The notes under the pieces were generated by a model that saw nothing but the letters and a program-made list of their open reading frames with translations, was not told the origin of the DNA and made no database searches. Shown here piece by piece: positions 11,308 through 52,403 of a DNA stretch of 64,000 nucleotides. The number at the start of each line of letters is the position of its first letter. The first letter of the stretch is position 1. The DNA is from Alphaproteobacteria bacterium (GTDB lineage: Bacteria > Pseudomonadota > Alphaproteobacteria > M2410): NCBI GenBank assembly GCA_006226305.1, contig SBHG01000127.1, positions 1,367-65,366 on the forward strand, read 5' to 3'. Position numbers and translations under genes: made by a program.

Positions 11308-11323
11308 TGCAAGCACAATACCA
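11308..11323 (-). promoter_or_regulatory. sigma-54-type -24/-12 promoter candidate
   Basis: Minus strand reads TGGTATtgtgcTTGCA, with exact GG-N10-GC spacing and a perfect TTGCA. About 55 nt upstream of the A-T-SGNH start. Confidence 0.45.
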
Positions 11324-11539
11324 GACCTGGGGCTCCAATCTGTCAGAATTTGGTCTGGGCGGTAGATCCGCGCGGTTTTACGCGCGATCAGATTCCATAA
11401 TACTCTATCCAAGAGGTCACCGATCTATCAAAATCCGGATCATTTCCTGACGAACTAATCATTTGAGAAAGATTTGATGCTAGGGTAGCAACATACTGGT
11501 TAACTCGTTGATGATCCTACTGATGGTCATGACCGCCCC

Positions 11540-12622
11540 ATGCAAACAAAAACTATTTCCGAAACTCAGTCTGCCAGCGCGCTAACACCTTTGCCACCTT
11601 TGGCAGAGCTTAGCGAGCGCTGGCAGAAACTGTCTTTGCAATCAGCAGACAATTTCTTTGCGACATGGGCCTGGGTGTCTGCCTGGCTTGATCCTTCAGA
11701 TAGCAACTATCGACTTTTCTCCATAAAAAGCGATGCAGGTGATGACCTGGCACTCGCCATCCTGTCGAAGGATCCTGATGATGGCTCGCTTTGGCTTAAT
11801 GCGCCTGCCAGTTCTGCACACCGTGTGATCTTTTGCGAATACGGCGGCCTTTTACACAGCCCCAAATTGACGAATTTTCCTCTTCACATCTTGACAGACC
11901 ATCTGTCGCAACAAACATTGCATATCAGCGGCTCACGCCTGCCGTTCGACCAACTTGAGCGGGTGTCCGATCGGCGTGCCCTCGGTCGCCAGAAACGCTC
12001 GTCTTTCTTCGCAAACCTTCAAATCATCCGACAGGCTGAGGGGGGGTATGACGCCCTCTTGAGCCGCAATACCCGCCAACAACTTGCTCGGGCGCAACGG
12101 ATTGAGGAGACCTTTGGCGAAATCTCGTTTCAGGTCTCCAAGACTGGCGTCGAGGCCAATACTGCGCTGAAAATGCTGATTTCTCTTCAGCGCTCATCAT
12201 TTGCTGTTCGGGGAAAGGAAAGCGCCTTCGACTCTTCCTTCCTTGGCCAGTTTGCGTCTGCGCTTATCAATTCACAAGCCAATGATGGCCACGTTGAGCT
12301 CTTTTCCCTCTACAATAGCGACGAATGTCTTGGTATCCTCTTTAACCTTGTTCAAGGATCAACAGTTGCTAACTACCAGAGCGGCTTTGCACTCAGGCAG
12401 GACCCGAAATCAAAAATTGGTTATCTGGTGCACAAAGCAGCGATCCAACACTACACACAGATGGGATTTGAGAAATATTCTTTTCTTGCCGGGGATGCAC
12501 AGTACAAACAAAGCATGTCGACGGATACTGAGATGCTTCATTGGGCTCGCCTTGAGCGCCCCTCTGCACTCAATTGGACGGAAAATACCGTGCGCCGTTT
12601 AGCTGGACGCCTCGTCACATGA
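11540..12622 (+). CDS. CelD/BcsL-type FemAB-like GNAT-fold protein
   Basis: About 360 aa. C-terminal YSFLAGDAQYKQSMSTD resembles the CelD-like acetyltransferase-fold family. Its stop overlaps the next gene (ATGA). Confidence 0.65.
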   Translation: MQTKTISETQSASALTPLPPLAELSERWQKLSLQSADNFFATWAWVSAWLDPSDSNYRLFSIKSDAGDDLALAILSKDPDDGSLWLNAPASSAHRVIFCEYGGLLHSPKLTNFPLHILTDHLSQQTLHISGSRLPFDQLERVSDRRALGRQKRSSFFANLQIIRQAEGGYDALLSRNTRQQLARAQRIEETFGEISFQVSKTGVEANTALKMLISLQRSSFAVRGKESAFDSSFLGQFASALINSQANDGHVELFSLYNSDECLGILFNLVQGSTVANYQSGFALRQDPKSKIGYLVHKAAIQHYTQMGFEKYSFLAGDAQYKQSMSTDTEMLHWARLERPSALNWTENTVRRLAGRLVT

Positions 12623-13722
12623 AGATCCTCTATCATCACAGAGTGGCGGCCAGGGATGGCATGGATGTTCACATAACAGAACTGGTCCGCGCCTTTCGTG
12701 ACCTAGGACATGACATGCTCATGGTGGGCCCTGACCGCGGAAGCGATACGGATTTTGGACGAAGCGGCGCAGCTGTCTCCCGTGTCCGCCAATTTTTACC
12801 TAGAGTAATTAGTGAAGCATTAGAAATTGTTTATGACCGCCTTGCCTTTCGGCGTCTGGAGCGCGCTTATTTGCAGTTTCAGCCGGATATTCTCTATGAG
12901 AGGCACAATCTCTTTTTGACCGCCGGCAAACGCCTGCATGAAAAATATGGTATACCCTATTTGCTGGAAGTGAATTCACCCTTGGCAGCAGAGCGAGAGG
13001 CTCATGGCGGACTCGCCCTCAAGCGATTTGCCACGGCACAGGAAGCGGCCGTTTGGCGCTCGGCGACGCACCTATTCCCGGTAAGTGGTGTTCTCTCCAA
13101 AATCCTACAGGCTGCAGATGTCGACCCCAACCGGATTACTGTCGTTCACAATGCTGTCAATCCGCAGATGTTTCACGAAGGTGTCGATGGCAGCGCCGTG
13201 CGTGCGCAATACGGGCTTGTTGAAACTGATGTTGTGCTCGGGTTCACCGGATTTATCCGACCCTGGCATGGACTTGACCGGGTCATTGATGCTCTGGCGA
13301 CCTCGATTGTGCCGACAAACACAAAACTGTTCATCGTTGGAGACGGCCCTCACCGCTCCGCTCTTGAACAGCAGGCTCTTGCCCTCGGCGTTCAGGATCG
13401 GGTTACCTTCGCCGGGTTAGTTTCACGGCGGGATATGCCAAGCTTTATCGCCGCCTTCGATATTGCCCTGCAGCCAGCAGTGACACCTTATGCGTCACCT
13501 TTGAAACTCTTTGAATATATGGCTCTGGGTAAGGCTATCATTGCGCCGGACCAGGAGAACATTCGGGAAATTTTGGACGATGCAGAGGGCGTTTTTTATT
13601 CAAAAGATTCTTCTGACCTTGCTCTCCTGATCTCCCAGGCAAGCCATTGTGAATATAAAGGTCCTGTCCGGCGCTGGTCAGAGAACGTACATCAAATACT
13701 TCAAAGCCTTGTAGCGCAATGA
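12619..13722 (+). CDS. glycosyltransferase family 4
   Basis: MKILYHHR... N-terminus. GT4-type C-terminal half (FIVGDGP, VTPYASPLKLFEYMALGKAIIAP). ATGA overlaps at both ends. Confidence 0.85.
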   Translation: MKILYHHRVAARDGMDVHITELVRAFRDLGHDMLMVGPDRGSDTDFGRSGAAVSRVRQFLPRVISEALEIVYDRLAFRRLERAYLQFQPDILYERHNLFLTAGKRLHEKYGIPYLLEVNSPLAAEREAHGGLALKRFATAQEAAVWRSATHLFPVSGVLSKILQAADVDPNRITVVHNAVNPQMFHEGVDGSAVRAQYGLVETDVVLGFTGFIRPWHGLDRVIDALATSIVPTNTKLFIVGDGPHRSALEQQALALGVQDRVTFAGLVSRRDMPSFIAAFDIALQPAVTPYASPLKLFEYMALGKAIIAPDQENIREILDDAEGVFYSKDSSDLALLISQASHCEYKGPVRRWSENVHQILQSLVAQ

Positions 13723-14993: not shown

Positions 14994-15003
14994 CCGATTT
15001 AGG

Positions 15004-18406: not shown

Positions 18407-18422
18407 CGGAATTGGACTTGCC
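18407..18422 (+). promoter_or_regulatory. sigma-54-type -24/-12 promoter candidate
   Basis: cGGAATtggacTTGCc with exact GG-N10-GC spacing. About 60 nt upstream of the Wzx start. Confidence 0.4.
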
Positions 18423-18480: not shown

Positions 18481-19995
18481 GTGTCTGAAACACAAGGGTC
18501 CTTATCAGCGCGTGTTTCCAAGAGCGCCGCCTGGCTGATCGCTACGCGATTGCTCTCCAGGTTGCTTGGGCTGGCAAGTACCGTTGTTGTTGCGCGCATT
18601 CTCGTTCCGGAGGATTTTGGCCTTTTTGCTCTTGCCATGTCTGTTGTTGCGATGATCGAAGGCATGAGCGCAACAGGGTTCGGCCAGGCGCTCATTCGGC
18701 AGCCGGAAGTGACGGCCCAAGATTTTGACACGGTCTGGACACTTAATCTCATTCGGGCTTTGATCTTATGTCTGATCCTGTTGATATGTGCCCTTGTATT
18801 GCCAAATCTCCTGGACAAGCCTGATCTCGCCCCCCTCTTATTTGCTTTTGCCTTGCTACCAGTCATTCGCGGTTTTTCTAATCCACGGATGATCGAGTTT
18901 GAACGCAATCTGAATTTTTCCCGGGTTTTTATTCTCCAAATGGCAGCCCGAATTGTTTCTGTGTCGGTCACGATTGTTGTCGTGGTGGTGCTACGGTCCA
19001 TTTGGGCCTTGGTTGCAGGTGTGTTGTCTGCCGCTGTTGTTAATGTTCTGCTTAGCCATTTTCTTCAGTTTCATCGGCTCCATTTTTCCTTTGCCAGCAC
19101 TCGAAAGATTTTTTCATTTACCGCGTGGCTCAATGGCATGAATGTAATCAACTCCATCTCCCACAATATGGATCGATTTATCGTCAATGGCTTCCTGGGA
19201 ACTGTCTCAACAGGCCTTTTCTACATGGGACAGAATGTTGCCACTCTGGTCACCCGGGAACTATTTTCCCCGCTGGAGAGGGCACTATTTCCCGGCCTCG
19301 TGCGGTTTTCATCAGACCCGGGCAAGCTTCGTGAGAATGTCCTGACGAGTATTGAGATCTTCACCGCCATCGGCCTACCGGTTGGATTTGGCTTTGCCTG
19401 GGTTGCCAGAGATTTTGTCCTGCTTATTTTTGGAGAGAAATGGGAGAGTATTGTTCCGATGATCCAAATCCTGGCACCTGTTCTTGGAATTCAGACGCTG
19501 ACCAGTGTCGCCTATAGTGCGCTCTTGGCCATTGGCGCCTCATCGACGCTGTTTTATCGTTCCATATGGATCTTTGGAGCCCGGTTGATATGCCTCATCG
19601 CAGGCGCTGCCTATTTTGGCTTCCTGGGCATTGTTATCGGCCACACGTTCTCCTATTTTCTCGAATTCTTGCTCAATTACGCGGCACTCATTTCAAAGAT
19701 AAAGATGCCCTGGTATTTGCCGATTTGGAGAGTGAGGAGGAGCCTGATTGCTGTCGTCACAATGGTATTGCTACTTATGGGGATCGACTCAGCTTTCTCG
19801 TCGCACTTCATTTTTCTTTTCAGCCCAATTGTTTCTGACCTAGTCCGGGATATAGTTTTTGGCGCAATGATTTACTTGTTATGCCATTTTTCCCTGTGGA
19901 AGGTTGAAAGATGCCCAATCGGCGCAGAGAAAACGGTTATAGATGTCATTGGAAAGTCCTCCCTTATTAGTGTTTTGCCAAAGAAAAACTCTTGA
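18481..19995 (+). CDS. wzx: Wzx-type polysaccharide flippase (MOP superfamily)
   Basis: 504 aa with about 12-14 hydrophobic helices. The N-terminus AAWLIATRLLSRLLGLASTVVVARILVPEDFGL is typical of polysaccharide biosynthesis (Wzx) proteins. GTG start. Confidence 0.8.
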   Translation: MSETQGSLSARVSKSAAWLIATRLLSRLLGLASTVVVARILVPEDFGLFALAMSVVAMIEGMSATGFGQALIRQPEVTAQDFDTVWTLNLIRALILCLILLICALVLPNLLDKPDLAPLLFAFALLPVIRGFSNPRMIEFERNLNFSRVFILQMAARIVSVSVTIVVVVVLRSIWALVAGVLSAAVVNVLLSHFLQFHRLHFSFASTRKIFSFTAWLNGMNVINSISHNMDRFIVNGFLGTVSTGLFYMGQNVATLVTRELFSPLERALFPGLVRFSSDPGKLRENVLTSIEIFTAIGLPVGFGFAWVARDFVLLIFGEKWESIVPMIQILAPVLGIQTLTSVAYSALLAIGASSTLFYRSIWIFGARLICLIAGAAYFGFLGIVIGHTFSYFLEFLLNYAALISKIKMPWYLPIWRVRRSLIAVVTMVLLLMGIDSAFSSHFIFLFSPIVSDLVRDIVFGAMIYLLCHFSLWKVERCPIGAEKTVIDVIGKSSLISVLPKKNS

Positions 19996-36672: not shown

Positions 36673-36680
36673 GGCAGTCC

Positions 36681-39728: not shown

Positions 39729-39909
39729 GCTTCTTCAAGACTTAACGCCCATGATGACATTTCCTAAAGCCCATACGGTCGACCCGCAGCGTCTGACCCA
39801 ATTGAAAAAAGGCGAACAGCTTTCGCTTGGCACCAGTGTTTTGATCTGGTGTGGGCTGTCGGTGATTTCCTGGGCGGTCTTTATTTTTGGCGCGCTGCAG
39901 CTCGTTTAA
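39727..39909 (+). CDS. possible small membrane protein (about 50-60 aa, single C-terminal TM helix)
   Basis: ORF 39718..39909. The C-terminus LSLGTSVLIWCGLSVISWAVFIFGALQLV is a plausible TM helix. Alternative starts are TTG 39718 and ATG 39748. No homology recognised. The 3' end overlaps the asnB-like stop. Confidence 0.3.
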   Translation: MLLQDLTPMMTFPKAHTVDPQRLTQLKKGEQLSLGTSVLIWCGLSVISWAVFIFGALQLV

Positions 39910-41795: not shown

Positions 41796-41801
41796 AAGCG
41801 A

Positions 41802-42872: not shown

Positions 42873-42912
42873 TCTTCCAATCGACACGCGCAGCTTGCCG
42901 CCTGTCCCAGAT

Positions 42913-42928
42913 CGGCACAGGCATCGCT
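42913..42928 (+). promoter_or_regulatory. weak sigma-54-type candidate facing the stp1-like GT4 gene
   Basis: cGGCACaggcaTCGCt has GG-N10-GC spacing and a good -24 box, but a degenerate -12 box (TCGC). It is intergenic only if xrtA starts at 42872. Confidence 0.2.
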
Positions 42929-42991
42929 TGCCTAACAGCAAAGGCCGCGGGTCCTCCAATTGCAGCAGCAGGTTCCGTTACCGGAAATTCT

Positions 42992-43007
42992 TGCAAGATT
43001 GATACCT
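42992..43007 (-). promoter_or_regulatory. sigma-54-type -24/-12 promoter candidate
   Basis: Minus strand reads aGGTATcaatcTTGCA with exact GG-N10-GC spacing. Upstream of xrtA. Confidence 0.4.
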
Positions 43008-43065: not shown

Positions 43066-44280
43066 ATGGCCGGAAAAAATTTTCTCCTCCTTTGTCAGCG
43101 TATCCCCTTCCCTCCCGACAAGGGAGATAAGATCCGTTCGTTCCGGCTTTTGGAACATCTGCAGACCAAAGGACAGGTTCATCTTGGTTGCTTTGTTGAC
43201 GATCCTGTCGACTGGGCCCATGTGGATGTCCTGGAGGAGAAAACCGCGAGCCTGAAGGCGGTCGCCTTGCATCCGCTGATCGCCCGGGCAAGATCGGTTC
43301 AGGCGCTGGCATTTGGCGCTCCCTTGAGCGCGCCGTATTTCTTTTCCCGGGCGCTGCAAAAATGGGTCGACCAGACACTGCAGGACAAACACATCGATAC
43401 CATTGTGATTTTTTCTTCTGCGATGGCGCAATACATCACTCGGCACAACCGCGGTGAGGCTCGCTTTGTCATCGATTATGTGGACGTGGATTCGGACAAA
43501 TGGCGCCAATATGCCCAAAACAAACACGGGCTCGCCCGATGGATCTATGGCCGTGAAGCTAACAGGCTTCTTGCCTTTGACCGTAATTTTGGCGCAGCAG
43601 CAGATTGTTGCAGCTTTGTCTCGAGGCAGGATGCCGACTTGTTTAAAACCTTGGCGCCGGAGCTGGCCTCCAAAACCATCGCGGTTTCAAATGGCATCGA
43701 TACGGATTTCTTTTCACCAGAAGCGACGCAGACACTGCACCGACCCGACTCTTTTCAAGGCGATGGTCCCCACCTCGTCATGACCGGGCATATGGATTAT
43801 TGGCCAAATGTGGAAGGCGCTTTGTGGTTTGCTCAAACCATCTTGCCGCAAGTGCGCGCCCAGTTTCCGGCGGCGCAGTTTCACATTGTCGGCGCCGCGC
43901 CGCGCGCTGACGTAAAGGTCCTTGGCGAGTCCGATCCGCATATTCATGTCACAGGACGCGTGCCCGACATTCGCCCCTATATGGCGGCGGCGGATCTTAT
44001 CGTCGCGCCCATCCGAATCGCGCGGGGCATCCAAAACAAGGTTTTAGAAGGCATGGCCATGGCCAAATGTGTCGTGACCACCGAGGCGGGATTTGAAGGC
44101 ATCGAAGCGGTTGAAGGCGAACACTTGCTGGTGGCGCAGGACAGTGCGGGCTTTGCCGGGCTGATCCAGGAAGCCCTTCGCTCCAAGGAAACAGAGGCGA
44201 TTGGCCAGCGGGCGCGGCAGCATCTTAAAGATCATTATGCCTGGGCGGCGCGCATGGCTGGCTTTGATCCCTATCTCTAA
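43066..44280 (+). CDS. glycosyltransferase family 4, PEP-CTERM/EpsH1 system-associated type
   Basis: The N-terminus MAGKNFLLLCQRIPFPPDKGDKIRSFRLLEHL matches the characteristic P-Y/F-P-P-x-K-G-D-K-I-R start of this family. ATG 43066 is preferred over 43024. Confidence 0.85.
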   Translation: MAGKNFLLLCQRIPFPPDKGDKIRSFRLLEHLQTKGQVHLGCFVDDPVDWAHVDVLEEKTASLKAVALHPLIARARSVQALAFGAPLSAPYFFSRALQKWVDQTLQDKHIDTIVIFSSAMAQYITRHNRGEARFVIDYVDVDSDKWRQYAQNKHGLARWIYGREANRLLAFDRNFGAAADCCSFVSRQDADLFKTLAPELASKTIAVSNGIDTDFFSPEATQTLHRPDSFQGDGPHLVMTGHMDYWPNVEGALWFAQTILPQVRAQFPAAQFHIVGAAPRADVKVLGESDPHIHVTGRVPDIRPYMAAADLIVAPIRIARGIQNKVLEGMAMAKCVVTTEAGFEGIEAVEGEHLLVAQDSAGFAGLIQEALRSKETEAIGQRARQHLKDHYAWAARMAGFDPYL

Positions 44281-45317
44281 CCGATATTGCGAACGATCTT
44301 TGGGCCCAGAAAATTGGCCACCGGCAGCGGTAGATGGCTCCAAAGCTTGACCGCCAGATGGTATTTCGGATTGGCCGGGCTCAGATTTGGCATCTCCTGA
44401 CCTTCCGCCAGAATAAATTCATGCGCGATGGGTTTGGGATCAAACCCCCAGTTCTTCTTAAAGGCATAGGGTCCGGTTCCGACTTTGGAACGTCCGAAGT
44501 CGAAATAGGTCTTTCCCTTGGTGATTGCGCGGCGCATGAGCTGCCAATACATCAGATCGTTGGAACCCAGCCCGCGGGCGGCGGGCAGGGAGCCGGTGTA
44601 ATAGGGCATCACCGTGTCGTTAAAATAAAAAGACAGGACGGCGCTCACAGGTTTGCCTTCGTGGCAAATCGTCAGGATATCGCAGTCAGCGCCAAAGATA
44701 TCAACCAGTGCCTGAAAATAGGTTTTGCCAAAGACCGGCGTGCCCAGATTGCGAACGCTCACCGCATAAAGGTGATGAAAATCATCCACCTTTTCATCCA
44801 TTCGAACCGTCAGTGCTTCATTTTTGAGCGCCTTGCGAACCACGGCGCGTTGCTTGCGCGGTATGAGTTTTAAGGCTTCGTCTTCATCCTCCGGGAGCGG
44901 CCGGCTGAAATTGGCATAAAGGTCCTCACGGGCGGGCAGGTTTTCATTACGGCGGTGAGGCGCGCGATATTCCACATAGGCCGCGCCTGTGTGGCGCATC
45001 AGTTCGCGTGCTTCGGCTTCCAAAATGTCATAGACGTCGCTGGTCAGTCCCAACGGTCCGCCGCCCATACAAAATCCGTTTGAGATCAAGGCATTGCCAA
45101 ACAGACGGCTTTGGATATGGGTGAGCGGCAAAATGCCAACAAGGCGCCCGGCCTCTCGCGCCTCGACGTAGTAGCTTTTGTGCCCAAAGGCGCGGGCGAC
45201 CACGTGGCGCCATCCGCTCAAGTGAAAAAAGCTGCCGCCCTCGGTTTCGCGAACGAAGGCGTCCCATTCAGCATCCGCTTCAGGGGAAAACTCCAGGAGC
45301 GACAGCTCAACACTCAT
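44277..45317 (-). CDS. FemAB family protein, PEP-CTERM system-associated type
   Basis: About 345 aa FemAB/GNAT-fold-like protein. ATG 45317 forms an ATGA overlap with the deacetylase stop. Conserved position in XrtA loci. Confidence 0.8.
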   Translation of the reverse strand: MSVELSLLEFSPEADAEWDAFVRETEGGSFFHLSGWRHVVARAFGHKSYYVEAREAGRLVGILPLTHIQSRLFGNALISNGFCMGGGPLGLTSDVYDILEAEARELMRHTGAAYVEYRAPHRRNENLPAREDLYANFSRPLPEDEDEALKLIPRKQRAVVRKALKNEALTVRMDEKVDDFHHLYAVSVRNLGTPVFGKTYFQALVDIFGADCDILTICHEGKPVSAVLSFYFNDTVMPYYTGSLPAARGLGSNDLMYWQLMRRAITKGKTYFDFGRSKVGTGPYAFKKNWGFDPKPIAHEFILAEGQEMPNLSPANPKYHLAVKLWSHLPLPVANFLGPKIVRNIG

Positions 45318-46234
45318 TGCGCCGCCTCGCCAAAGGCCGGCGTCGACGCGCCGACAAAACACTCATCTACCCGACCCCACTTAAAGTCCCTCAAAAGCCG
45401 TTCGATCTTTGCCTCCATACGCGACAAATTGGTGTAATGGCGTAGGCGCGATTTAAAAGGCACCCCCACCGGGCGCGGCTGGTCGGCGTCGATTTCCCAG
45501 GGATGGCAATAGAACATATAGGGCTGCGCCTCGTTCCTGTTGAGCTGGCGGATCGCGTATTTTGAAAAAGCGTAAGGGAAGATCCGGAAATAACCACCCC
45601 CACCACCCGGCCAAGTGCGCCCGAGCTTGCGTAAGGTGGTCATGGGATACTCAACAATCCCGCATCCGGGATAAGGCCGGAAGGCAAAGCGAGGCGCTTC
45701 GTCCAGCCCGTAAAGATCGTGCGCGATGGGGTAAACGGAGGAAGAGTATTTATACCCCTCTTCCGCCAGAACCTCATATGCCCAGAGCACATCTTCGCGC
45801 ATGGAAAAGGTTGCCGCCCGGTAGCCCTTGACCGGAACACCGCCAAGATCTTCCAGGATCGCCTTGGTGCGCTTTACGTCCGCGCGAAACGCCGCGGCAT
45901 CCTGCTCGAACACACGCGTGTGCTCATACCCATGAGCCGCCAGTTCATGCCCCTCGGCGGCGATGCGTTGGATGGTGCCGGGAGCACGCTCGGCAATCCA
46001 GCCGAGAGTAAAGAAGGTTGCCTTAACATCATACTGGGCAAACAGATCGAGAAGCCGCTCGGTGTTGCGCGCGACCCGGAGCTCCTCGCCCTCCCAGTTT
46101 GAGCGATCATAGGCACTGACAAGAGCCTGAACCTGGAAGTAATCCTCGACGTCAACCGACATGGCATTGCGGATCGGCGTCTTGGCCATTTCCGGCAGGG
46201 GGAGGGGCTGCGGATCAAAGGGGGGATTGATCAT
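45314..46234 (-). CDS. polysaccharide deacetylase, PEP-CTERM-locus subfamily
   Basis: NAMSVDVEDYFQVQA N-terminal motif. NodB-type residues (ELAAHGYEH). Confidence 0.9.
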   Translation of the reverse strand: MINPPFDPQPLPLPEMAKTPIRNAMSVDVEDYFQVQALVSAYDRSNWEGEELRVARNTERLLDLFAQYDVKATFFTLGWIAERAPGTIQRIAAEGHELAAHGYEHTRVFEQDAAAFRADVKRTKAILEDLGGVPVKGYRAATFSMREDVLWAYEVLAEEGYKYSSSVYPIAHDLYGLDEAPRFAFRPYPGCGIVEYPMTTLRKLGRTWPGGGGGYFRIFPYAFSKYAIRQLNRNEAQPYMFYCHPWEIDADQPRPVGVPFKSRLRHYTNLSRMEAKIERLLRDFKWGRVDECFVGASTPAFGEAAQ

Positions 46235-46261
46235 CAGATCAGGTCCTTTTGGGTCGTGCGG

Positions 46262-47473
46262 TCAACTGGCCTTGTGGCGACCACCGAGATAGTCAATCAC
46301 CAGGTGCAAGGCCCGACGCATCAGCTTGCTCTCGTCTTCCTGGCTGACCTCCGGCTCGGCCACATGGCGAATGGTGAGGTCGACAATTTGCGGTTCATCC
46401 AAATCGCTGCGCGAACTCATGGGCGTCACCTCCACGATTTCCGGTTCCCGGTGACGCTCCTCGTCCACATGGGGAACCGGGAAGTCCAGGTCATCGGCCA
46501 AATCGTTTGAAAATTGCGTAGCCGCCACCGCCATTTCCGGCGTCAGGTCCACCTCGGCCTGAAGTTCTTTGGTCAGCCGCGCGATTTCGGCGTCATGATC
46601 CTTTGAGACACGCGATAAGGGCGCCGCGGCGGAAACCGCCGCTTCTCTGTCGAGGACCTGATCCAGCTCCTCCTCCAGCTCTTCAGCCACCGCCAGAACC
46701 ATATCGCGGGTGATGTGGTGGGTTTCTTCCAGATAGGCATAGAGCAGGATACGGGTGCAAAGCGTGTTGATCTTGCGCGGCAGGCCTTCCGTTAAGAGAT
46801 GAATTTCCAACAGGGCTTCATGTTCGAAGGAGGGGTCTTGCTGCCAGCCGACGCATTGCAACCGGTGACAGATATATTCCATGGTTTCCTGAGGTGACAG
46901 GGGCCCCAAATGATAGGAAGCGATCACCCGTTGGCGCAGCTGAGCCAGCTCAGGGCGCGCCAGGGTCTTTCTGAACTGCGGCTGACCCAGCAGGAAACTC
47001 TGAAGGGCCGGCTTGCCGTTGACCAGAAGGTTGGAGAGCATGCGCAGCTCTTCCAAGGCGGTGATCGATAGGTTTTGCGCTTCGTCGACAAATAACAGGC
47101 AGCGGCGACCCTGCCGATAACTGTCCGCGATGAACCGCTCAATGGTGCGGAAGACGGTCGTCTTGTTCTGGCCCTCCTGCGGCAGGCCAAAAGCAGAGGC
47201 CACCATGCGGATCATGTTTTCCTGATCGAGATTGGTGGTCACGATATTGGCCGCGACAAATTTGCGCGAATCCAGAGTGGCCAGAAGGTGTTCTGTAATC
47301 GTGGTTTTGCCGGCCCCGACCTCGCCGGTAATCAGAATAAACCCTTCTCCCTGATCCAGACCGAACTTCAGGTGCGAAATCGCCCGCTTGTGGACCGAAC
47401 TTAAATAAAAGAACCGGTGATCGGGAGACAGGCGGAAGGGGATTCCGCTAAATCTGAAAAACTCGTCATACAT
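46262..47473 (-). CDS. ExeA-like AAA ATPase, XrtA/PEP-CTERM system-associated
   Basis: MYDEFFRFSGIPFRLSPD..., Walker A GEVGAGKTT and Walker B LLFVDEAQNL. About 130 aa acidic C-terminal tail. Confidence 0.85.
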   Translation of the reverse strand: MYDEFFRFSGIPFRLSPDHRFFYLSSVHKRAISHLKFGLDQGEGFILITGEVGAGKTTITEHLLATLDSRKFVAANIVTTNLDQENMIRMVASAFGLPQEGQNKTTVFRTIERFIADSYRQGRRCLLFVDEAQNLSITALEELRMLSNLLVNGKPALQSFLLGQPQFRKTLARPELAQLRQRVIASYHLGPLSPQETMEYICHRLQCVGWQQDPSFEHEALLEIHLLTEGLPRKINTLCTRILLYAYLEETHHITRDMVLAVAEELEEELDQVLDREAAVSAAAPLSRVSKDHDAEIARLTKELQAEVDLTPEMAVAATQFSNDLADDLDFPVPHVDEERHREPEIVEVTPMSSRSDLDEPQIVDLTIRHVAEPEVSQEDESKLMRRALHLVIDYLGGRHKAS

Positions 47474-47502
47474 ACGAAGTGATCACCGGACCTTTTCTTG
47501 CG

Positions 47503-48981
47503 TTACCAGGATGTGGTTACTGACAATACGATGGCGTTTTCCGTCACTTCCATTCCAGTGCCATATTCGTAGCTCTGGTTGACCCCTTGAAGTGAAATAT
47601 AGGCATTTTGCGTCAACGCCATCGCCGCGCCAATTGAGTAGCGCTCGATATCTGTTTCTTGTGCCGGCACATCGGCGTCTTCGTCTGACAGGCCGACACT
47701 GGCGAATGCTTTTAAGCGATCGGAGAAGAGATATTCCATGCGGCCCTGCACCTGAGTAATGGTGTTGTCATTAAGGGCAAACTCAAACTCGCGATCGAGA
47801 TAGGCAAAGCCGAGCTGATAGGAAAAGGCATCCATGTTACCCGATGCCTGAACGCGGGCGCGGCGCTGGATGTAACTGTCATTGACAATGTCAGCCACAA
47901 TATCATCCAAACCGATCAACGCGCCGGTGTCGTCGAAAATGGGCGTGCCGCTCAATTCGACGAATTGACCCGCATCCGTCACCAGGGTGTGGTTATAGCT
48001 CGCGGTCAGGGCAAAACTTTCCCTGAAGGTGTGACTGGCGGCCATGTCGTAAGTTGTGCGATTGTACCGTTGACCGGCTTCGGCCCGGAATGTGGTGCGA
48101 GCGCTTGGCCGCATATCAAATCCGACCCGCCAGAGAGTTTCCTCAATCTCATTGGTGCCATCACCGTTAGTGTCGGCCTGGTCATACCCGACACGGCCGA
48201 TGAGACGGGTCGTCCCGGAAATACCAAAGAAGGCAGAGGCGAGAACATCCAAATCCTCGCGATCATCATCCAATTGACGGGCGCGAACATTCAGGCTCCA
48301 GGTAAAGGGGTCTTGCGAATTTTCAGTGCCAATTCGAAATTGCTCCGTGACGCGGTCGATGTCATTTGGCAGAACGGTCGCCGCGCCAACGTCAGTATCG
48401 CTATAGCTGACGTTGGAAAGTTCAACGCCGGCCAAAAGTTCCATGCTGCCGCCGACAATGGTTTCAATATAGGGCCGCAAGCTCACCGTGGTGACGCGCA
48501 CTTGCTCGCCGCCATAGGTGCGATCTGTTGCGGCGCGAACCGCGTTGCGATTGCGGGCGCGCTCCAGGACCGAACCATTGAGGTCGATATAGAAAAATTC
48601 CGGCGAGACTTCAAAGGTGTTTGTGGCGCGCAGATCATGACGGGTGCCGTCATATTCGTCCGCCGTGTCATATTTGTCGTAAGAGAACTGATAATAGAGC
48701 GCCGATTGTAATCGCGGCGAAGTGGCACGCAATTGCAGACCAAGATCGATGCTCAGGATGGTATCGTCTTCCTCGCCACCATCGGTCAGATAGACATTGT
48801 CGGTTTGCGTAACCTTTAAATCCGCGGTTGGGGTCACTTCGACCTCCACCGCGCGGGCACCCGTCGTAGCCGCAAGCAGCGTCAGACCGGATGCAAGAAC
48901 CAAGCTTCCCAACGAAAGCGTGGTCAGAGATGTCCCCCTCAAAAGGGATGAATTTGAACGATTTTTAGCCCCATTAGCCAT
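47503..48981 (-). CDS. outer-membrane beta-barrel protein, PEP-CTERM-locus-associated
   Basis: Signal peptide ...ATTGARAVEV. Beta-strand-rich, ending ...VTTSW. ATG 48981 overlaps the upstream stop by 8 nt. Confidence 0.7.
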   Translation of the reverse strand: MANGAKNRSNSSLLRGTSLTTLSLGSLVLASGLTLLAATTGARAVEVEVTPTADLKVTQTDNVYLTDGGEEDDTILSIDLGLQLRATSPRLQSALYYQFSYDKYDTADEYDGTRHDLRATNTFEVSPEFFYIDLNGSVLERARNRNAVRAATDRTYGGEQVRVTTVSLRPYIETIVGGSMELLAGVELSNVSYSDTDVGAATVLPNDIDRVTEQFRIGTENSQDPFTWSLNVRARQLDDDREDLDVLASAFFGISGTTRLIGRVGYDQADTNGDGTNEIEETLWRVGFDMRPSARTTFRAEAGQRYNRTTYDMAASHTFRESFALTASYNHTLVTDAGQFVELSGTPIFDDTGALIGLDDIVADIVNDSYIQRRARVQASGNMDAFSYQLGFAYLDREFEFALNDNTITQVQGRMEYLFSDRLKAFASVGLSDEDADVPAQETDIERYSIGAAMALTQNAYISLQGVNQSYEYGTGMEVTENAIVLSVTTSW

Positions 48982-49897
48982 TTGCCTGGCTCCCCTGGTA
49001 ATAATAGGAATAGGCCCCGTAACGCTCGCGGGCCTGTTGTTCCGTGACTTTATTAAGAACAAGGCTAATATTCTCGCAGGAAGAAATCAATGACAGGGCC
49101 TGGGCAATGTCGCGCTGAGAGGTGCGATTGGCCTCCACAACCATGGCAATCTGGCCCACATGAGAGGCCAAAACACTGGCTTCACTGCTCATGAGGACCG
49201 GCGGTGTGTCAACGATGATGACCCGGTCGGAATAGCGGGTGGCCATATCGCTCATCAGGGATTTCATTTGCGGGCTCGACAGCAGCTCGGTCGCCTGGGC
49301 CACATGGTCGCCTGAGGGCAGGATGGTCAGGTTCGGCACATTGGTGCGCACCAGAACATCCGGGATTGTCAGGCTTTCATTGACCAGAAGATCCAAAAAT
49401 CCATATTCGGAGTGAAAACCGAGGCGTTGAGGCACATCCCGGCGCACGACATCGGCATCCACCAACAGCACATTCAGCCCCTTTTCGGAGGCAATACTCA
49501 TGGCCAGATTGATGGCAACAAAGGTCTTGCCCTCATTGGGCTGGGTACTGGTGACCATGATCACGTGGTCGCGCCCGTTGGACTGTGCCTTTGGTTCAAA
49601 GGCATTGAGCAGGAGCGGGCGCTTGATGGCGCGCATCTCTTCGACGATCCGGCTGCGACCGGAATTCGGCGTCACATACCCCTTCTTTTCCATGTCCGTC
49701 AGGTTCAGGTTTGCCATGTTGACGGAACGACGGCCTGTATTGAGCGGAGCGGTGACCGAAGCCTCGGCAGGGCCGAAACCTGACCCGCGAGAGGTTTCCT
49801 GCGCGCGGTTGATGAGATCCATCGGTTTGCGGGTTGAGGCAGGCTTTGCCTCCCTTTCGGCGAAACGCTCTACCAGACTTTTTTTCTTGTCACTCAT
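48974..49897 (-). CDS. BY-kinase-like chain-length determinant tyrosine kinase (EpsG type)
   Basis: Walker A-like TSTQPNEGKTFVAINLA, then LLVDADV and IIVDTPPV. C-terminal tyrosine cluster YGAYSYYYQG. Confidence 0.8.
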   Translation of the reverse strand: MSDKKKSLVERFAEREAKPASTRKPMDLINRAQETSRGSGFGPAEASVTAPLNTGRRSVNMANLNLTDMEKKGYVTPNSGRSRIVEEMRAIKRPLLLNAFEPKAQSNGRDHVIMVTSTQPNEGKTFVAINLAMSIASEKGLNVLLVDADVVRRDVPQRLGFHSEYGFLDLLVNESLTIPDVLVRTNVPNLTILPSGDHVAQATELLSSPQMKSLMSDMATRYSDRVIIVDTPPVLMSSEASVLASHVGQIAMVVEANRTSQRDIAQALSLISSCENISLVLNKVTEQQARERYGAYSYYYQGSQANG

Positions 49898-49939
49898 TTT
49901 ACTTCACCTTGAAAGGAGACAGGCTCCCTACTCCCACTG

Positions 49940-51532
49940 TTATCCGCTTAGTCCGGTAATGTTGATGGCGTCACGTAACCCATCCATATAGGGCAAGAGC
50001 AGCGCGGCAATCACAACGAGACCGACCGGCATGGCAGCCGCGATGAGAAATGTCGTGTTGGACAAAGCTGACTTGGCCTTTGAAGACAGGCTCTCGATCC
50101 GCGATATTGACCCGATCACCGGCAGACCAAATGTCTGGTTGAGCCTGGAGGCGACCGCAAAGGTGTCTTCAAGCTGGGCCCGCAGGAAGCTGGTACCGCC
50201 TCCGGCGCCGAAGGCAAACACCAGCACCATGCCCAAATAGATCAGACGCGGCGGCCCTGACGGCAGCGCCGGGATGACGGGTGGTTCAACGTTTTGATAT
50301 TGCACCGCGTCGGTCCAGGCGTTGCGCTCTGATGTCAGTTTGACGCGCTCGCGACCAGCCAGGATATTTTCGTAAGAGGCCTTGATGACATTGTAATCGC
50401 GGTTGAGCGCCTGCATTTGGGCTTCGATTTCCGGCGCCTTGGTGGCGTTCTTTTGCATCTCTTCATAGACTTCCTGAGCCGTCTTCTTCTTTTGCTCAAG
50501 AATAGATAGCTGCTGGTTGGCGTCGAGCAGTTTCAAGCTGAGCTGCTCATGAACCGGATTGGCCACCTTGGTCGCGTTGACGAAGTTTTCTTCTTCGTTG
50601 TCGCCGGACTTGCCCTCCCGTTCACGTTCATAGCGATCAATCAACCGGGTCAGGCGTTTTTGTGAGGCCACAACATCGGGATGATTTTCGGTATATTGGG
50701 CGAGCAGGTCATCAAGACGCTTGCGCTCTGCCTGGATCTGAGAATAGGTGGAGGAAACCAACTGACCATCGATGAGGATCGGGGGCGCACTTTCCATGGT
50801 ATTGTATTTCGGCGTCTTGCGCAGGTTTGCTTCGAGCTGATCCCGGACCGCGGTGGTTTCGGCGATCTGGAAATCGATCTCCTTGACAGCTTGGGCGGCT
50901 GCGCGCATGCGCTCCACGAAAGTCTTTTCGCCGGACAGGATGCCCAGATGCTCAGCGCGGAACTTGGCCATGCGCTGCTCCGCCTCCGATAATCTTGCCT
51001 CATAATCGGCGATCTGTGTTTTCAGGAAGGACTCCGAACTCTGAATGCTGGTGCGGTTCTGACCGAGATTGCTTTCGGTAAAAACCGTGAGAAGGGCTTG
51101 CACCACGTCGCGCGCGCGCTTGGGGTCGGTATCAACAAATGAAACCTCCAGCACATTAAATTTTGTCAACCGGACCTTGATGCGGCTCTTCAAGCTTTCC
51201 AGCATCTCCTGCTCTTCGGCTTCATTGGTGATCTCAAGATCAAGATCGACGGAACGAGCGACCTGCTGCAGGTTGGGCATGGACAACAGGGTTTCAGTTT
51301 TGGTTTGCAATTGCCGCTGAACATTGGCCTCAACGGTAACCCCTTTGGTCGCCTGGTCCAATGTCGTGTTCGGATCAACCTGAATAACCGCCTTGGATTC
51401 ATACTGGTCCGGCATCAACACAACAAAAGTCGTGCCGATGACCGCAAAGACCCAGACCACCGGAATGCCAATCCAGCGCCAACGCCAGGTCTTTTTCAGC
51501 TGCGCCAAAATTTCAAGATAGGCTTCGTTCAT
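49940..51532 (-). CDS. polysaccharide chain-length determinant (Wzz/PCP, PEP-CTERM-locus type)
   Basis: N- and C-terminal TM helices flank about 400 aa of coiled-coil-rich periplasmic domain. Confidence 0.85.
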   Translation of the reverse strand: MNEAYLEILAQLKKTWRWRWIGIPVVWVFAVIGTTFVVLMPDQYESKAVIQVDPNTTLDQATKGVTVEANVQRQLQTKTETLLSMPNLQQVARSVDLDLEITNEAEEQEMLESLKSRIKVRLTKFNVLEVSFVDTDPKRARDVVQALLTVFTESNLGQNRTSIQSSESFLKTQIADYEARLSEAEQRMAKFRAEHLGILSGEKTFVERMRAAAQAVKEIDFQIAETTAVRDQLEANLRKTPKYNTMESAPPILIDGQLVSSTYSQIQAERKRLDDLLAQYTENHPDVVASQKRLTRLIDRYEREREGKSGDNEEENFVNATKVANPVHEQLSLKLLDANQQLSILEQKKKTAQEVYEEMQKNATKAPEIEAQMQALNRDYNVIKASYENILAGRERVKLTSERNAWTDAVQYQNVEPPVIPALPSGPPRLIYLGMVLVFAFGAGGGTSFLRAQLEDTFAVASRLNQTFGLPVIGSISRIESLSSKAKSALSNTTFLIAAAMPVGLVVIAALLLPYMDGLRDAINITGLSG

Positions 51533-51568
51533 GACCCTTTACCCTTAAGACCTTGAGATCACTGCTCC

Positions 51569-52198
51569 TTAGAACCGTGACTCAGGAATAATCAGAACAT
51601 CACCTGGGTGAAGATCCACATTGGCGCCCACATCGCCGGAGCGCAAAAGATCCGCCAGACGGACGCGGTAGACTTGTTCTTCCTCACCCATCTTGCGAAT
51701 GATGACGGCGCGGTTGCCGTCCGCATAGTCGGTAAGGCCGCCCACTTCGATCATAGCGTCCAGCACTGTCATTCCCTTGCGGTAAGGAAGGGCTTGAGGC
51801 CGGGTTGCCTGGCCAACGATCCGGATCTGCTGGCTGAAAGAACCCGTAAAGCCGGTTACGATAATGGTGACCTGCGGATCCTGAATATAGGTCTTCAAGG
51901 TCTCTTCCATTTCTGTCGCCAGCTGTGTCGGCGATTTACCCGCGGCCAGAATGTCCTCAATCAGCGGAATGGAGATACGTCCATCCGGGCGCACCGGTAC
52001 GGTGGTCGACAGATCCTGGTTTCGCCAGACAAAAACCTGCAAGGTATCGCCCGGGCCAATCTTGTAATCATCATTGGATTGCTCGATCGGCTGATGGGTT
52101 GGCGCGTCCGGATATTTCGACGCACATGCCGAAACAAAAATTGCGGCCAACAGGCTGAGCGCTAAAGCGCCCTTTTTGATCATCCCCTCGCGTATCAT
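51569..52198 (-). CDS. Wza-like polysaccharide export lipoprotein (PEP-CTERM-locus type)
   Basis: Lipobox IFVSAC. YKIGPGDTLQVFVW is the poly-export motif. AAGGAG lies upstream of GTG 52201 / ATG 52198; the ORF track starts at TTG 52243. Confidence 0.85.
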   Translation of the reverse strand: MIREGMIKKGALALSLLAAIFVSACASKYPDAPTHQPIEQSNDDYKIGPGDTLQVFVWRNQDLSTTVPVRPDGRISIPLIEDILAAGKSPTQLATEMEETLKTYIQDPQVTIIVTGFTGSFSQQIRIVGQATRPQALPYRKGMTVLDAMIEVGGLTDYADGNRAVIIRKMGEEEQVYRVRLADLLRSGDVGANVDLHPGDVLIIPESRF

Positions 52199-52387
52199 CA
52201 CGATGTTCACTCCTTTGCGATTAAAGATCGACCCTGATTTCAAGGTGCGATCCCTCTTATGTGTCCTGTCCTCTTTTTAAAGGTACTCGGGTACCCGACA
52301 CCAAAAGGCGCCGCCAGGGCACCGATGTCTTCCTTTCGGACAGATATTTGTCTTCTGCTGTTTCTAACCAATTGCTCGCCTACTATA

Positions 52388-52403
52388 TGCAATTTCGATT
52401 CCG
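52388..52403 (-). promoter_or_regulatory. sigma-54-type -24/-12 promoter candidate
   Basis: Minus strand reads cGGAATcgaaaTTGCA with exact GG-N10-GC spacing. About 190 nt upstream of the export-gene start, at the head of the seven-gene export/assembly operon. Confidence 0.45.

What the first reader, a model, noticed from the sequence alone, without database searches (positions are those of the whole stretch)
11308..52403. Recurrent GG-N10-GC sigma-54-type elements in front of several EPS transcription units
Four intergenic sites have exact -24/-12 spacing and share a GG(A/T)AT-N5-TTGC pattern:
- TGGTATtgtgcTTGCA (11308-11323, minus), before the A-T-SGNH gene
- cGGAATtggacTTGCc (18407-18422, plus), before wzx
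- aGGTATcaatcTTGCA (42992-43007, minus), before xrtA
- cGGAATcgaaaTTGCA (52388-52403, minus), before the seven-gene export/assembly operon

Two weaker sites exist: TAGCACGggtcTTGCA (38159-38174, minus) and cGGCACaggcaTCGCt (42913-42928, plus).

The locus encodes PrsR, an NtrC-type activator carrying the GAFTGA sigma-54 contact motif. A PrsK/PrsR-sigma-54 regulon that covers both the conserved core and the AT-rich variable arm is therefore plausible. It would mean the acquired arm has been wired into the core regulator.
Basis: partly seen in the sequence, partly recalled or inferred. Interest (0 to 1): 0.6.

Follow-up and report, generated by a model that had tools for sequence, protein, structure and literature searches.

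The report
Sigma-54-like promoters lacking PrsR boxes
Four short promoter-like motifs in a slime (exopolysaccharide) gene cluster are really there, and two or three probably are sigma-54 promoters, but they lack the binding box of the local regulator PrsR, which in this genome sits only in front of the secreted PEP-CTERM protein genes.

Summary
All six quoted motifs are at the stated coordinates, in front of the named genes. The locus is a complete XrtA/PEP-CTERM exopolysaccharide (EPS) cluster with PrsK, PrsR (GAFTGA present) and PrsT, and the genome has rpoN.

GG-N10-GC alone is not enriched. A generic sigma-54 matrix lifts only site 1 (14.6 bits) above the coding background; sites 2-4 score 8.2-11.8 bits and do not stand out.

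Two other lines of evidence help:
- GGWAT-N5-TTGC clusters in this locus's intergenic DNA.
- In all five genera of this small alphaproteobacterial order, the gap before the export operon has a GG-N10-GC site as its best (in G002/G006, second-best) sense-strand hit. Four genera have GG-N8-TTGCA; G003 has TGGCAC-N5-TAGCT. Combined p is about 2e-4 without this genome.

The xrtA site recurs almost unchanged in one of three other genera. Sites 1 and 2 have no comparators.

The PrsR link fails its key test. The order's PrsR box (TGTCAGGATTCTTTACA, then 50-82 nt, then TGGCAY-N5-TTGCT) precedes 17 of 30 PEP-CTERM genes in relatives and occurs at three places in this genome. It is absent from the EPS locus in all six genomes.

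Verdict: probably a PrsR-box-less sigma-54 tier with an unknown activator, of moderate interest.

The parts
11308..11323 (-). s1: TGGTATTGTGCTTGCA, the best sigma-54 candidate. It lies about 45-50 nt before the A-T-SGNH gene start.
   Evidence: Sequence. It scores 14.6 bits and is one of only 8 intergenic sites at 14 bits or more in the genome, where about 2 are expected from the coding density. No orthologue exists in relatives, so conservation could not be tested.
18407..18422 (+). s2: CGGAATTGGACTTGCC, a weak candidate. It lies 58 nt before the wzx GTG.
   Evidence: Sequence. At 8.2 bits it sits at background density. It is not conserved before wzx homologues in G002 or G004. It shares CGGAAT with s4 and CTTGC(N)AAGAATTT with s3 (read from the sequence).
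42992..43007 (-). s3: AGGTATCAATCTTGCA, in the stp1<>xrtA divergent gap, pointing at xrtA.
   Evidence: Sequence; 11.8 bits. G002 and G006 have AGGTATTGATCTTGCA at the same place (p 0.009 and 0.005). G004 and G005 have no site.
52388..52403 (-). s4: CGGAATCGAAATTGCA. It lies between the hlyD terminator and the export operon, 144 nt before the TTG start of the longest frame.
   Evidence: Sequence; 10.6 bits. It is the best sense-strand hit in its gap (p 0.021). Every other genus has a sense-strand GG-N10-GC site in the same gap.
38159..38174 (-). w1: TAGCACGGGTCTTGCA, 59 nt before epsB2-prsK-prsR. It lacks the first G of the GG pair.
   Evidence: G004 has TCGCACGAATATTGCA, but 291 nt upstream. 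G002 and G006 have TGGCATCGAAATTGAA, which lacks GC. The result is inconclusive.
42913..42928 (+). w2: CGGCACAGGCATCGCT, inside the longest xrtA frame, pointing at stp1. Probably chance.
   Evidence: It scores 9.8 bits. The same strand in relatives scores only 1.2-5.6.
20790..20803 (-). Fifth GGWAT-N5-TTGC match, antisense inside a GT2 gene. Taken as a chance match.
44277..52243 (-). Seven-gene XrtA-system export/assembly operon: export protein, chain-length determinant, Tyr kinase, outer-membrane protein, ATPase, deacetylase, FemAB-like protein.
   Evidence: TIGR03027, 03007, 03018, 03016, 03015, 03006 and 03019, all above cut-off.
39906..42959 (-). xrtA (41802-42959) followed by the XrtA-system amidotransferase (39906-41795).
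   Evidence: TIGR03109 and TIGR03108.
30296..38099 (-). epsB2 (36681-38099), prsK (34579-36672), prsR (33218-34582) and prsT (30296-33136).
   Evidence: TIGR03013, TIGR02916, TIGR02915 (658 bits) and TIGR02917. GAFTGA is present in PrsR.
8426..11257 (-). Gene for the adenylation - carrier - SGNH fusion protein, downstream of s1.
   Evidence: Adenylation-domain hits. No orthologue in 40 relatives.
18481..19995 (+). wzx-type MOP flippase, downstream of s2.
   Evidence: NF007773, E 4.8e-52.
52500..52522 (-). Intrinsic terminator after hlyD, so the export operon needs its own promoter.
   Evidence: 9-bp stem followed by TCTTTGTT.
52307..52323 (-). Terminator-like hairpin followed by TTTTGG, inside the predicted export leader.
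   Evidence: Not conserved as a structure in relatives. No Rfam match.

Best explanation
The locus holds a small set of sigma-54 (-24/-12) promoters of a degenerate 'GGNNT/C-N5-TTGCA' type. They drive EPS machinery genes: most likely the seven-gene export/assembly operon (s4) and the A-T-SGNH gene (s1), probably the xrtA-amidotransferase unit (s3), and possibly wzx (s2).

Inferred mechanism: sigma-54 holoenzyme sits on GG/GC as a closed complex, and an AAA+ activator with a GAFTGA loop opens it. Transcription would then start about 12 nt after the GC.

These promoters form a separate tier from the canonical PrsR regulon. PrsR's 17-nt box is confined to PEP-CTERM cargo genes elsewhere in the genome, and none accompanies the EPS sites. 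PrsR is therefore probably not the direct activator.

The activator is unresolved. The genome offers three GAFTGA proteins: NtrC, a LuxO-like regulator and PrsR. I lean to NtrC or the LuxO-like protein but could not show either.

Shown: the sequences, their conservation, and the absence of PrsR boxes. Inferred: sigma-54 binding, the start sites and the activator.
For: - rpoN is present. Three bEBPs carry GAFTGA, and NtrX lacks it.
- The matrix behaves correctly as a control. Its top intergenic hits include glnB/glnK and the two PEP-CTERM genes.
- s1 scores 14.6 bits. At 14 bits or more, intergenic density is about 4 times coding density.
- Export operon: a terminator closes the upstream T1SS operon. 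In the hlyD-export gap of each genus, the top (second in G002/G006) sense-strand hit is a GG-N10-GC site. These are G000 CGGAATCGAAATTGCA, G004 GGGCCTGCATTTTGCA, G002 CGGCCTGGGCCTTGCA (G002 also has AGGCACAAAACCTGCA, its top hit), G005 CGGTCTAGGTTTTGCA and G003 TGGCACGGGATTAGCT.
- The flanks of those sites are not alignable, and antisense scores are lower in every genome. Per-region p values are 0.021, 0.041, 0.017, 0.151 and 0.002. Fisher's combined p is 1.6e-4 without G000.
- xrtA: a 14/16-identical 16-mer occurs in G002 and G006.
- GGWAT-N5-TTGC clusters in this locus.
- The simple sigma-70 consensus scan found nothing on the right strand before the export operon or xrtA.
- galU, an EPS-precursor gene, has a sigma-54 site conserved in three genera. 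That fits a box-less sigma-54/EPS tier.
- A canonical 16-17.5-bit site precedes the export gene in another alphaproteobacterial genus (G031/G210).
- No PrsR box occurs in the EPS loci, while boxes are clear at PEP-CTERM genes.
Against: - s2, s3 and s4 score no better than the coding background on a generic matrix.
- Their -24 halves (GGAAT, GGTAT with A or C at -26) depart from the TGGCAY used by every PEP-CTERM promoter of the order.
- No shared enhancer was found upstream, and sigma-54 promoters need one.
- The xrtA site is missing in G004 and G005. In G004 the homologous stretch has indels that break the spacing.
- A near-identical 16-mer (AGGTATCAATATTGCA) sits before an unrelated Lrp-type gene.
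- Only 5 of 25 other alphaproteobacterial export genes have a significant site.
- In Aquincola, EPS genes were reported not to depend on RpoN1 (PMC9850573).
- The matrix was written from memory of published consensus frequencies, and the gene calls are crude longest-ORF calls.
Confidence: 0.5

Rival explanations
1. One reading: PrsK/PrsR directly activates all these EPS promoters, including the acquired arm, as one PrsR-sigma-54 regulon.
For: - prsK, prsR and prsT are in the locus, and PrsR has GAFTGA.
- PrsR is one of only three usable activators in the genome.
- In G031/G210, a TGT-N11-ACA dyad with the outline of a PrsR box lies about 100 nt before a canonical sigma-54 site at the export gene.
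Against: - The order's PrsR box is nearly invariant (TGTCAGGATTCTTTACA) and has phased 50/62/73/82-nt spacers.
- No match reaching the self-score range exists anywhere in the EPS loci of six genomes.
- A loose GTCA-N7-TKAC core with up to one mismatch hits 2 of 13 upstream regions, against a background of 0.53 per region. One of those hits is only 13 nt from the -24 element.
- There is no TGT-N11-ACA within 260 nt upstream of any site.
- In Aquincola, RpoN1 controls pepA but apparently not the EPS genes.
Confidence: 0.18
2. Most or all of the sites are chance GG-N10-GC matches in AT-rich intergenic DNA, and the EPS units are transcribed from ordinary sigma-70-type or ECF-type promoters. What is conserved in relatives would then be something else, for example a transcription-factor site containing TTGAT or TTGCA.
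For: - Generic scores of s2-s4 are at background.
- GG-N8-TTGC is expected a few times in 4.8 kb of intergenic DNA (my estimate).
- The pattern was defined post hoc.
- A look-alike 16-mer lies before an Lrp gene.
- G004 keeps 'AAGGATTGATC' before xrtA but not the spacing.
- A 9/12 sigma-70-like match lies upstream of s1, at 11431-11402.
- No enhancer was found.
Against: - A GG-N10-GC site recurs before the export operon on the sense strand in five genera, with diverged flanks (p about 2e-4).
- The pattern clusters in this locus.
- s1 is in the score range where about three quarters of intergenic hits exceed the chance expectation.
- The -35/-10 readings I tried by eye on the conserved TTGCA gave no consistent -10 element.
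Confidence: 0.25

Closest known systems
PEP-CTERM box: motif 1 plus sigma-54 motif 2 upstream of PEP-CTERM genes, with PrsK/PrsR/PrsT (Haft, Paulsen, Ward, Selengut 2006, PMC1569441)
   Same: The genetic system is the same (XrtA locus, PrsK/PrsR/PrsT, rpoN), and so is the GG-N10-GC promoter type. This genome has textbook copies at C76, C108 and C53: a 17-nt box ending in TTTACA, followed 51-106 nt later by the sigma-54 site.
   Different: The four EPS sites have no motif 1. Their -24 half is GGWAT rather than TGGCAY. They precede polysaccharide-machinery operons, not single PEP-CTERM genes. [quoted passage not shown]
RpoN1-dependent pepA of Aquincola tertiaricarbonis (PMC9850573) and the Zoogloea floc model
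   Same: Sigma-54 and PrsK/PrsR act on an XrtA-type EPS/floc system. The pepA start site was mapped behind TGGCAC/CTGCTT.
   Different: In that work the EPS biosynthesis genes were reported not to be RpoN1-regulated, and EPS is still made in the mutant. Here, and across this alphaproteobacterial order, the export operon itself carries a sigma-54-like site.
Sigma-54 control of exopolysaccharide genes in general (Francke et al. 2011, PMC3162934). That paper's reference list includes a study of NtrC-regulated EPS in Vibrio vulnificus.
   Same: Sigma-54 promoters lie before genes for EPS precursors and transport, activated by NtrC-family proteins.
   Different: Those systems are not exosortase loci, and their activators and enhancers are known. 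Here the enhancer and the activator are unidentified.
Weak-consensus sigma-54 promoters such as Klebsiella nifH (TGGTAT-N5-CTGCA; from my own knowledge)
   Same: s1 has the same TGGTAT -24 half and a similar matrix score (14.6 against 14.4).
   Different: nifH has a defined NifA upstream activator site and an IHF site. Nothing comparable was found here.

Membership tests
sigma-54 (-24/-12) promoter | GG and GC dinucleotides separated by exactly 10 nt, on the sense strand upstream of a gene | tested here: met
   Met by all four main sites. w1 has AG instead of GG.
sigma-54 (-24/-12) promoter | Match to the extended consensus TGGCAC-N5-TTGCW good enough to stand out from the genomic background | tested here: inconclusive
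   s1 (14.6 bits) stands out. s3 (11.8), s4 (10.6) and s2 (8.2) lie where intergenic and coding densities are equal.
sigma-54 (-24/-12) promoter | rpoN and at least one GAFTGA-bearing activator in the genome | tested here: met
   rpoN is on C153. NtrC, a LuxO-like protein and PrsR all carry GAFTGA.
sigma-54 (-24/-12) promoter | An upstream activator (enhancer) site, usually 70-200 nt upstream | tested here: not met
   No shared motif rose above the shuffled controls, and there is no PrsR box. Separate, unrecognised sites at each promoter cannot be excluded.
sigma-54 (-24/-12) promoter | Conservation of the element at orthologous promoters while the flanks diverge | tested here: met
   - s4: met in five of five genera (Fisher p 1.6e-4 without G000).
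- s3: met in one of three other genera.
- s1: no orthologues.
- s2: not conserved.
sigma-54 (-24/-12) promoter | Transcription start about 12 nt after the GC, and dependence on rpoN | not testable with these tools
PEP-CTERM box / PrsR regulon (Haft 2006) | A 17-nt motif 1 ending in TTTACA upstream of the sigma-54 site | tested here: not met
   Absent upstream of s1-s4, w1 and w2. Present at C76, C108 and C53 in the same genome, and before 17 of 30 PEP-CTERM genes in relatives.
PEP-CTERM box / PrsR regulon (Haft 2006) | A spacer of about 32-92 nt (mean 63) between motif 1 and motif 2 | tested here: not met
   There is no motif 1 to measure from. The true boxes in this order show spacers of 50, 62, 73 and 82 nt.
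PEP-CTERM box / PrsR regulon (Haft 2006) | PrsK, PrsR and PrsT encoded in the genome | tested here: met
   TIGR02916, TIGR02915 and TIGR02917, all above cut-off.
PEP-CTERM box / PrsR regulon (Haft 2006) | The downstream gene encodes a PEP-CTERM protein (the usual case) | tested here: not met
   The downstream genes are the export operon, xrtA, wzx and an adenylation fusion protein. The PEP-CTERM genes lie on other contigs.

The most novel reading that the evidence does not exclude
This alphaproteobacterial order runs its exosortase system on two separate sigma-54 tiers. The known tier is PrsR-box promoters for the PEP-CTERM cargo proteins. The second, undescribed tier is box-less, with degenerate -24 elements and a strong TTGCA -12 element, and it drives the polysaccharide export/assembly operon, xrtA and galU. 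In this genome that second tier would also include newly acquired genes of the variable arm, whose promoters resemble those of the core (s2 resembles s3 and s4). A different activator, NtrC or the LuxO-like protein, would then link slime production to nitrogen status or cell density, independently of PrsK.
Probability: 0.3. Interest if true: 0.55.

Novelty: new variant of a known kind. Interest (0 to 1): 0.35.

Why it matters
The accepted picture, both computational (Haft 2006) and experimental (Zoogloea, Aquincola), is that sigma-54 and PrsR control the PEP-CTERM cargo proteins, while the polysaccharide genes are expressed independently.

If the export operon and the exosortase gene carry their own sigma-54 promoters without PrsR boxes, matrix polysaccharide and matrix protein would be gated by two different signals through the same sigma factor. 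That would change how floc and biofilm formation in such bacteria should be dissected.

It would also give a concrete example of horizontally acquired glycan-modification genes gaining host-type promoters. The claim rests on sequence alone and concerns an uncultured lineage, so its weight is moderate.

Tried and rejected
- **PrsR box at the EPS sites.** I tried an exact or up-to-2-mismatch pattern, a family matrix and a loose dyad core. None matched.
- **Shared enhancer by seed-and-extend search.** I used 9, 5 and 11 upstream regions. All results fell within the null range or were marginal, with the best p about 0.04-0.05 for CCATTTTGGAGC-like words.
- **LuxO-type dyad CGCA-N3/4-TGCG as the enhancer.** It is present before the export operon in G002 and G006 and before an orphan promoter on C25. 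It is absent from this window, and with 160 copies genome-wide it is too common to be useful.
- **A sigma-54 hit near the LuxO-like gene.** The hit on C75 overlaps the start codon of an opposite-strand gene, so I treat it as chance.
- **Known RNA elements in the leaders.** Rfam returned nothing at gathering thresholds.
- **Conserved leader structure or attenuator.** Folds differ between genera.
- **Sigma-70 alternative.** The scan found nothing on the right strand before the export operon or xrtA, and one background-level match before s1.
- **Generality across Alphaproteobacteria.** Only 5 of 25 export genes have a significant site, so the feature is lineage-specific. PrsR-anchored loci from other classes gave nothing consistent before epsB2.
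- **Orthologues for s1.** None were found.
- **The ORF overlapping s4.** It has no homologues and is treated as spurious.


Full report
**What the locus is**

The window is C207:1367-65366 of a 2.69-Mb, 221-contig, 88%-complete genome. NCBIfam models identify a complete XrtA/PEP-CTERM exopolysaccharide locus:
- a seven-gene export/assembly operon at 44277-52243 (-): TIGR03027, 03007, 03018, 03016, 03015, 03006, 03019
- stp1 at 43024-44280 (+)
- xrtA at 41802-42959 (-)
- the XrtA-system amidotransferase at 39906-41795 (-)
- a GT4 glycosyltransferase at 38473-39678 (+)
- epsB2, prsK, prsR and prsT at 30296-38099 (-)
- a lower-GC arm, about 40-50% GC between roughly 14 and 30 kb, with glycosyltransferases, a flippase, an O-antigen-ligase-like protein and an RTX protein

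rpoN is present. Four proteins carry a full sigma-54 activator domain. NtrC, a LuxO-like regulator and PrsR have GAFTGA; NtrX does not.

The genome belongs to a small alphaproteobacterial order of seven species-level genomes in one family. The nearest named record is an unclassified Alphaproteobacteria MAG.

**Checking the observation**

The 104-codon ORF that overlaps s4 on the opposite strand has no homologue in the relatives, so I treat it as spurious and count s4 as intergenic.

The bare pattern GG-N10-GC carries no information: 782 matches against 770 expected.

I wrote an approximate sigma-54 matrix from memory of the published consensus TGGCACG-N4-TTGCW. It gives 14-16 bits to three textbook promoters. 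Its top intergenic hits in this genome include glnB/glnK and the PEP-CTERM genes, so it behaves sensibly.

With crude longest-ORF gene calls, intergenic hits exceed coding density only from about 13-14 bits upward: 0.018 against 0.0047 per kb per strand at 14 bits or more. Between 10 and 12 bits the two densities are the same.
- s1 scores 14.6 and is one of eight intergenic sites at 14 bits or more in the genome.
- s3 (11.8), s4 (10.6) and s2 (8.2) are not distinguishable from background by score.

**Two things rescue part of the finding**

First, the shared pattern GGWAT-N5-TTGC is over-represented. There are five matches in the window against 1.33 expected, a count reached by one shuffle in 100. 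Genome-wide there are 48 matches; nine are intergenic, and four of those nine lie in this window. The window holds about 2% of the intergenic DNA, giving a Poisson p of about 5e-5. That number is inflated, because the pattern was defined from the sites themselves.

Second, and independent of that bias, is conservation. The core locus (bioB, prtD, hlyD, export operon, stp1, xrtA, amidotransferase, GT4, epsB2, prsK, prsR, prsT, stp2, RTX) is syntenic in all the relatives that have it: G002-G006, covering four further genera.

In the hlyD-export gap of every genus, the top (second in G002/G006) sense-strand hit is a GG-N10-GC element:

| Genome | Site |
|---|---|
| G000 | CGGAATCGAAATTGCA |
| G004 | GGGCCTGCATTTTGCA |
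| G002 | CGGCCTGGGCCTTGCA (plus AGGCACAAAACCTGCA closer to the gene) |
| G006 | CGGCCCGGGCCTTGCA (plus the same proximal site as G002) |
| G005 | CGGTCTAGGTTTTGCA |
| G003 | TGGCACGGGATTAGCT |

- The flanks do not align between genera, and antisense scores are lower in every genome.
- Against first-order Markov simulations of each region, the best-hit p values are 0.021, 0.041, 0.017, 0.151 and 0.002.
- Fisher's combination gives 3e-5 with G000 and 1.6e-4 without it.
- By my own base count on the printed sequences, the element lies about 155-185 nt before the likely start codon in G000, G004 and G005 alike.
- In G000 it lies just downstream of a strong intrinsic terminator that ends the T1SS operon (52522-52500), so a promoter is needed there. 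The simple sigma-70 scan finds none on that strand.

For xrtA, G002 and G006 carry AGGTATTGATCTTGCA where G000 has AGGTATCAATCTTGCA (p 0.009 and 0.005). G004 and G005 have no site. In G004 the recognisably related stretch has indels that destroy the 10-nt spacing. Combined p without G000 is only 0.03.

The gene behind s1 has no orthologue in 40 relatives. The wzx homologues of G002 and G004 have no such site. s1 and s2 therefore cannot be tested by conservation.

s2 does share CGGAAT with s4, and it shares the stretch CTTGC(N)AAGAATTT with s3 (read).

My estimates that each site is a working sigma-54 promoter are:

| Site | Probability |
|---|---|
| s1 | about 0.65 |
| s4 | about 0.65 |
| s3 | about 0.5 |
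| s2 | about 0.3 |
| w1 | about 0.2 |
| w2 | about 0.05 |

**Testing the PrsR link**

Haft et al. (PMC1569441) defined the PrsR target as a 17-nt motif 1 ending in TTTACA, then a spacer averaging 63 nt, then the sigma-54 site.

This genome has two clear PEP-CTERM protein genes, on C76 and C108. Both carry exactly that arrangement:
- TGTCAGGAAATTTTACA, 62 nt, TGGCATGGGATGTGCT
- TGTCAATTTTCTTTACA, 51 nt, TGGCACAGAATTTGTA

The exact pattern TGTCA-N6-TTTACA occurs nowhere else in the genome.

In the relatives, 17 of 30 PEP-CTERM genes have the box, nearly invariant as TGTCAGGATTCTTTACA. The spacers are 50, 62, 73 or 82 nt, and the sigma-54 sites are always TGGC-type.

A matrix built from these boxes gives them 24.6-31.8 bits. 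It finds a third copy in this genome, on C53 (27.5 bits). It finds nothing in that range in the EPS loci of any of the six genomes. The best hit in the window is 18.4 bits, inside a GT2 coding region.

Three further checks also came back negative:
- No TGT-N11-ACA lies within 260 nt upstream of any of the six sites.
- A deliberately loose core (GTCA-N7-TKAC, up to one mismatch, either orientation, 300 nt) hits 2 of 13 EPS upstream regions against a background of 0.53 per region. One of the two hits is only 13 nt from the -24 element.
- General motif searches for any shared enhancer stayed within or at the edge of the shuffled range.

The sequence evidence therefore places the PrsR regulon at the cargo genes and not at the EPS operons. 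This agrees with the experimental report that Aquincola RpoN1 controls pepA while EPS gene transcription and EPS synthesis persist in the rpoN1 mutant (PMC9850573).

**Best reading**

There is a second, box-less class of sigma-54 promoter with a degenerate -24 half and a well-kept TTGCA -12 half. It drives polysaccharide machinery in this order.

Support from outside the locus:
- galU has TGGCTTGTCTCTTGCA 35 nt upstream in G000, TGGCTTGTCGCTTGCA in G004, and CGGCACGGGACTTGCG in G002 and G006. G003 and G005 have nothing.
- Another alphaproteobacterial genus (G031/G210) has a canonical 16-17.5-bit site 242 nt before its export gene, with a conserved TGTCCTGAAATGGGACA dyad about 100 nt further upstream.

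The feature is lineage-specific. Only 5 of 25 other alphaproteobacterial export genes show a significant site.

The activator is unknown. A LuxO-type dyad (GCGCAAATTGCGC) sits about 100 nt upstream of the distal site in G002 and G006. It resembles the two dyads before the strongest sigma-54 promoter of G000, on C25. Nothing like it is in this window, and the loose pattern is too frequent to carry weight.

**Comparison with what is known, and novelty**

Sigma-54 control of surface polysaccharides is a known theme (PMC3162934). The PrsR/sigma-54 control of PEP-CTERM genes is also well described. What would be new is that the exosortase-linked export operon, and probably xrtA, are themselves sigma-54-dependent without a PrsR box.

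I found no description of this in the papers searched. It departs from the Aquincola result. I rate it as a new variant of a known kind, resting on sequence only.

**Limits**
- The sigma-54 matrix is approximate.
- Gene calls are longest-ORF calls.
- The order has only five genera to compare.
- The same-genus genome G001 lacks the export gene, xrtA and the A-T-SGNH gene in its assembly.

Noticed in passing
genome contig C25:6528-6703 (outside the window): The best sigma-54 site in the genome (TGGCACGGCATTTGCT, 18.4 bits) has two LuxO-type dyads 119 and 160 nt upstream: TTCGCAAATTGCGAA and GTCGCAAAATGCGAA. No ORF of 80 aa or more follows for 1.4 kb. Together with the LuxO-like activator on C75:2232-3908, this looks like a Qrr-type small-RNA quorum-sensing module in an alphaproteobacterium.
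   Followed up: partly
genome contig C53:8919-9060 (outside the window): A third PrsR box (TGTCGGAATTCTTTACA, 27.5 bits) lies 106 nt before TGGCCCGGAACTTGCT. No convincing ORF follows, and the next gene is convergent. It may be an orphan PrsR-dependent promoter for a small RNA or a small protein.
   Followed up: partly
genome contig C150:12720-12735 (-), before galU (11764-12684): galU (UDP-glucose pyrophosphorylase) has a 14.7-bit sigma-54 site. An almost identical site precedes galU in G004, and a related one precedes it in G002 and G006. G003 and G005 have none.
   Followed up: partly
window 52307-52323 (-) and 52500-52522 (-): A strong terminator follows hlyD. A second, terminator-like hairpin with a U-run lies inside the predicted long leader of the export operon and could be an attenuator. 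It has no Rfam match, and no conserved fold was seen in relatives.
   Followed up: partly
window 41802-42959 (-): XrtA is 385 aa here (longest frame). The orthologous open frames are 514-590 aa in relatives, apart from a contig-truncated 259-aa frame in G003, so the usual C-terminal extension or EpsI-like part is missing in this genome.
   Followed up: no
window 52582-55928 (-) and 23648-27883 (-); loci of G002-G006: A type I secretion pair (prtD-hlyD) lies directly upstream of the export operon in all five relatives (in G002 and G006 the fetched stretch begins inside hlyD). A large RTX protein downstream of prsT-stp2 is conserved in G002, G004 and G006. The T1SS/RTX module therefore appears to be a fixed part of the XrtA locus in this order.
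   Followed up: partly
window 18416-18435 (+) and 42978-42997 (-): s2 and s3 share the stretch CTTGC(N)AAGAATTT running from the -12 element into the predicted melting region. An 8-mer is identical at a one-base offset. This hints at a common origin or a common extra contact.
   Followed up: no
genome contig C166:6116-6131 (-): AGGTATCAATATTGCA, 15/16 identical to s3, lies 53 nt before an Lrp/AsnC-type regulator gene that is divergent from a saccharopine-dehydrogenase-like gene. It is either a further member of the same promoter class or a warning about chance matches.
   Followed up: partly
L010 (G031) about 1085-1215 and L159 (G210): In another alphaproteobacterial family, the export gene has a canonical sigma-54 site 242 nt upstream. 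A conserved 17-nt dyad lies about 100 nt before that site: TGTCCTGAAATGGGACA in G031 and TGTCCTAGAATGGCACA in G210. It has the TGT-N11-ACA outline of a PrsR box but different half-sites.
   Followed up: partly
window 11362-11389 (+): A GC-rich imperfect palindrome (GATCCGCGCGGTTTTACGCGCGATC) is centred about 55 nt upstream of the s1 -24 element, in an otherwise AT-rich divergent gap. It is a possible activator site for s1. ATCGCGCG also occurs about 155 nt upstream of s4.
   Followed up: partly
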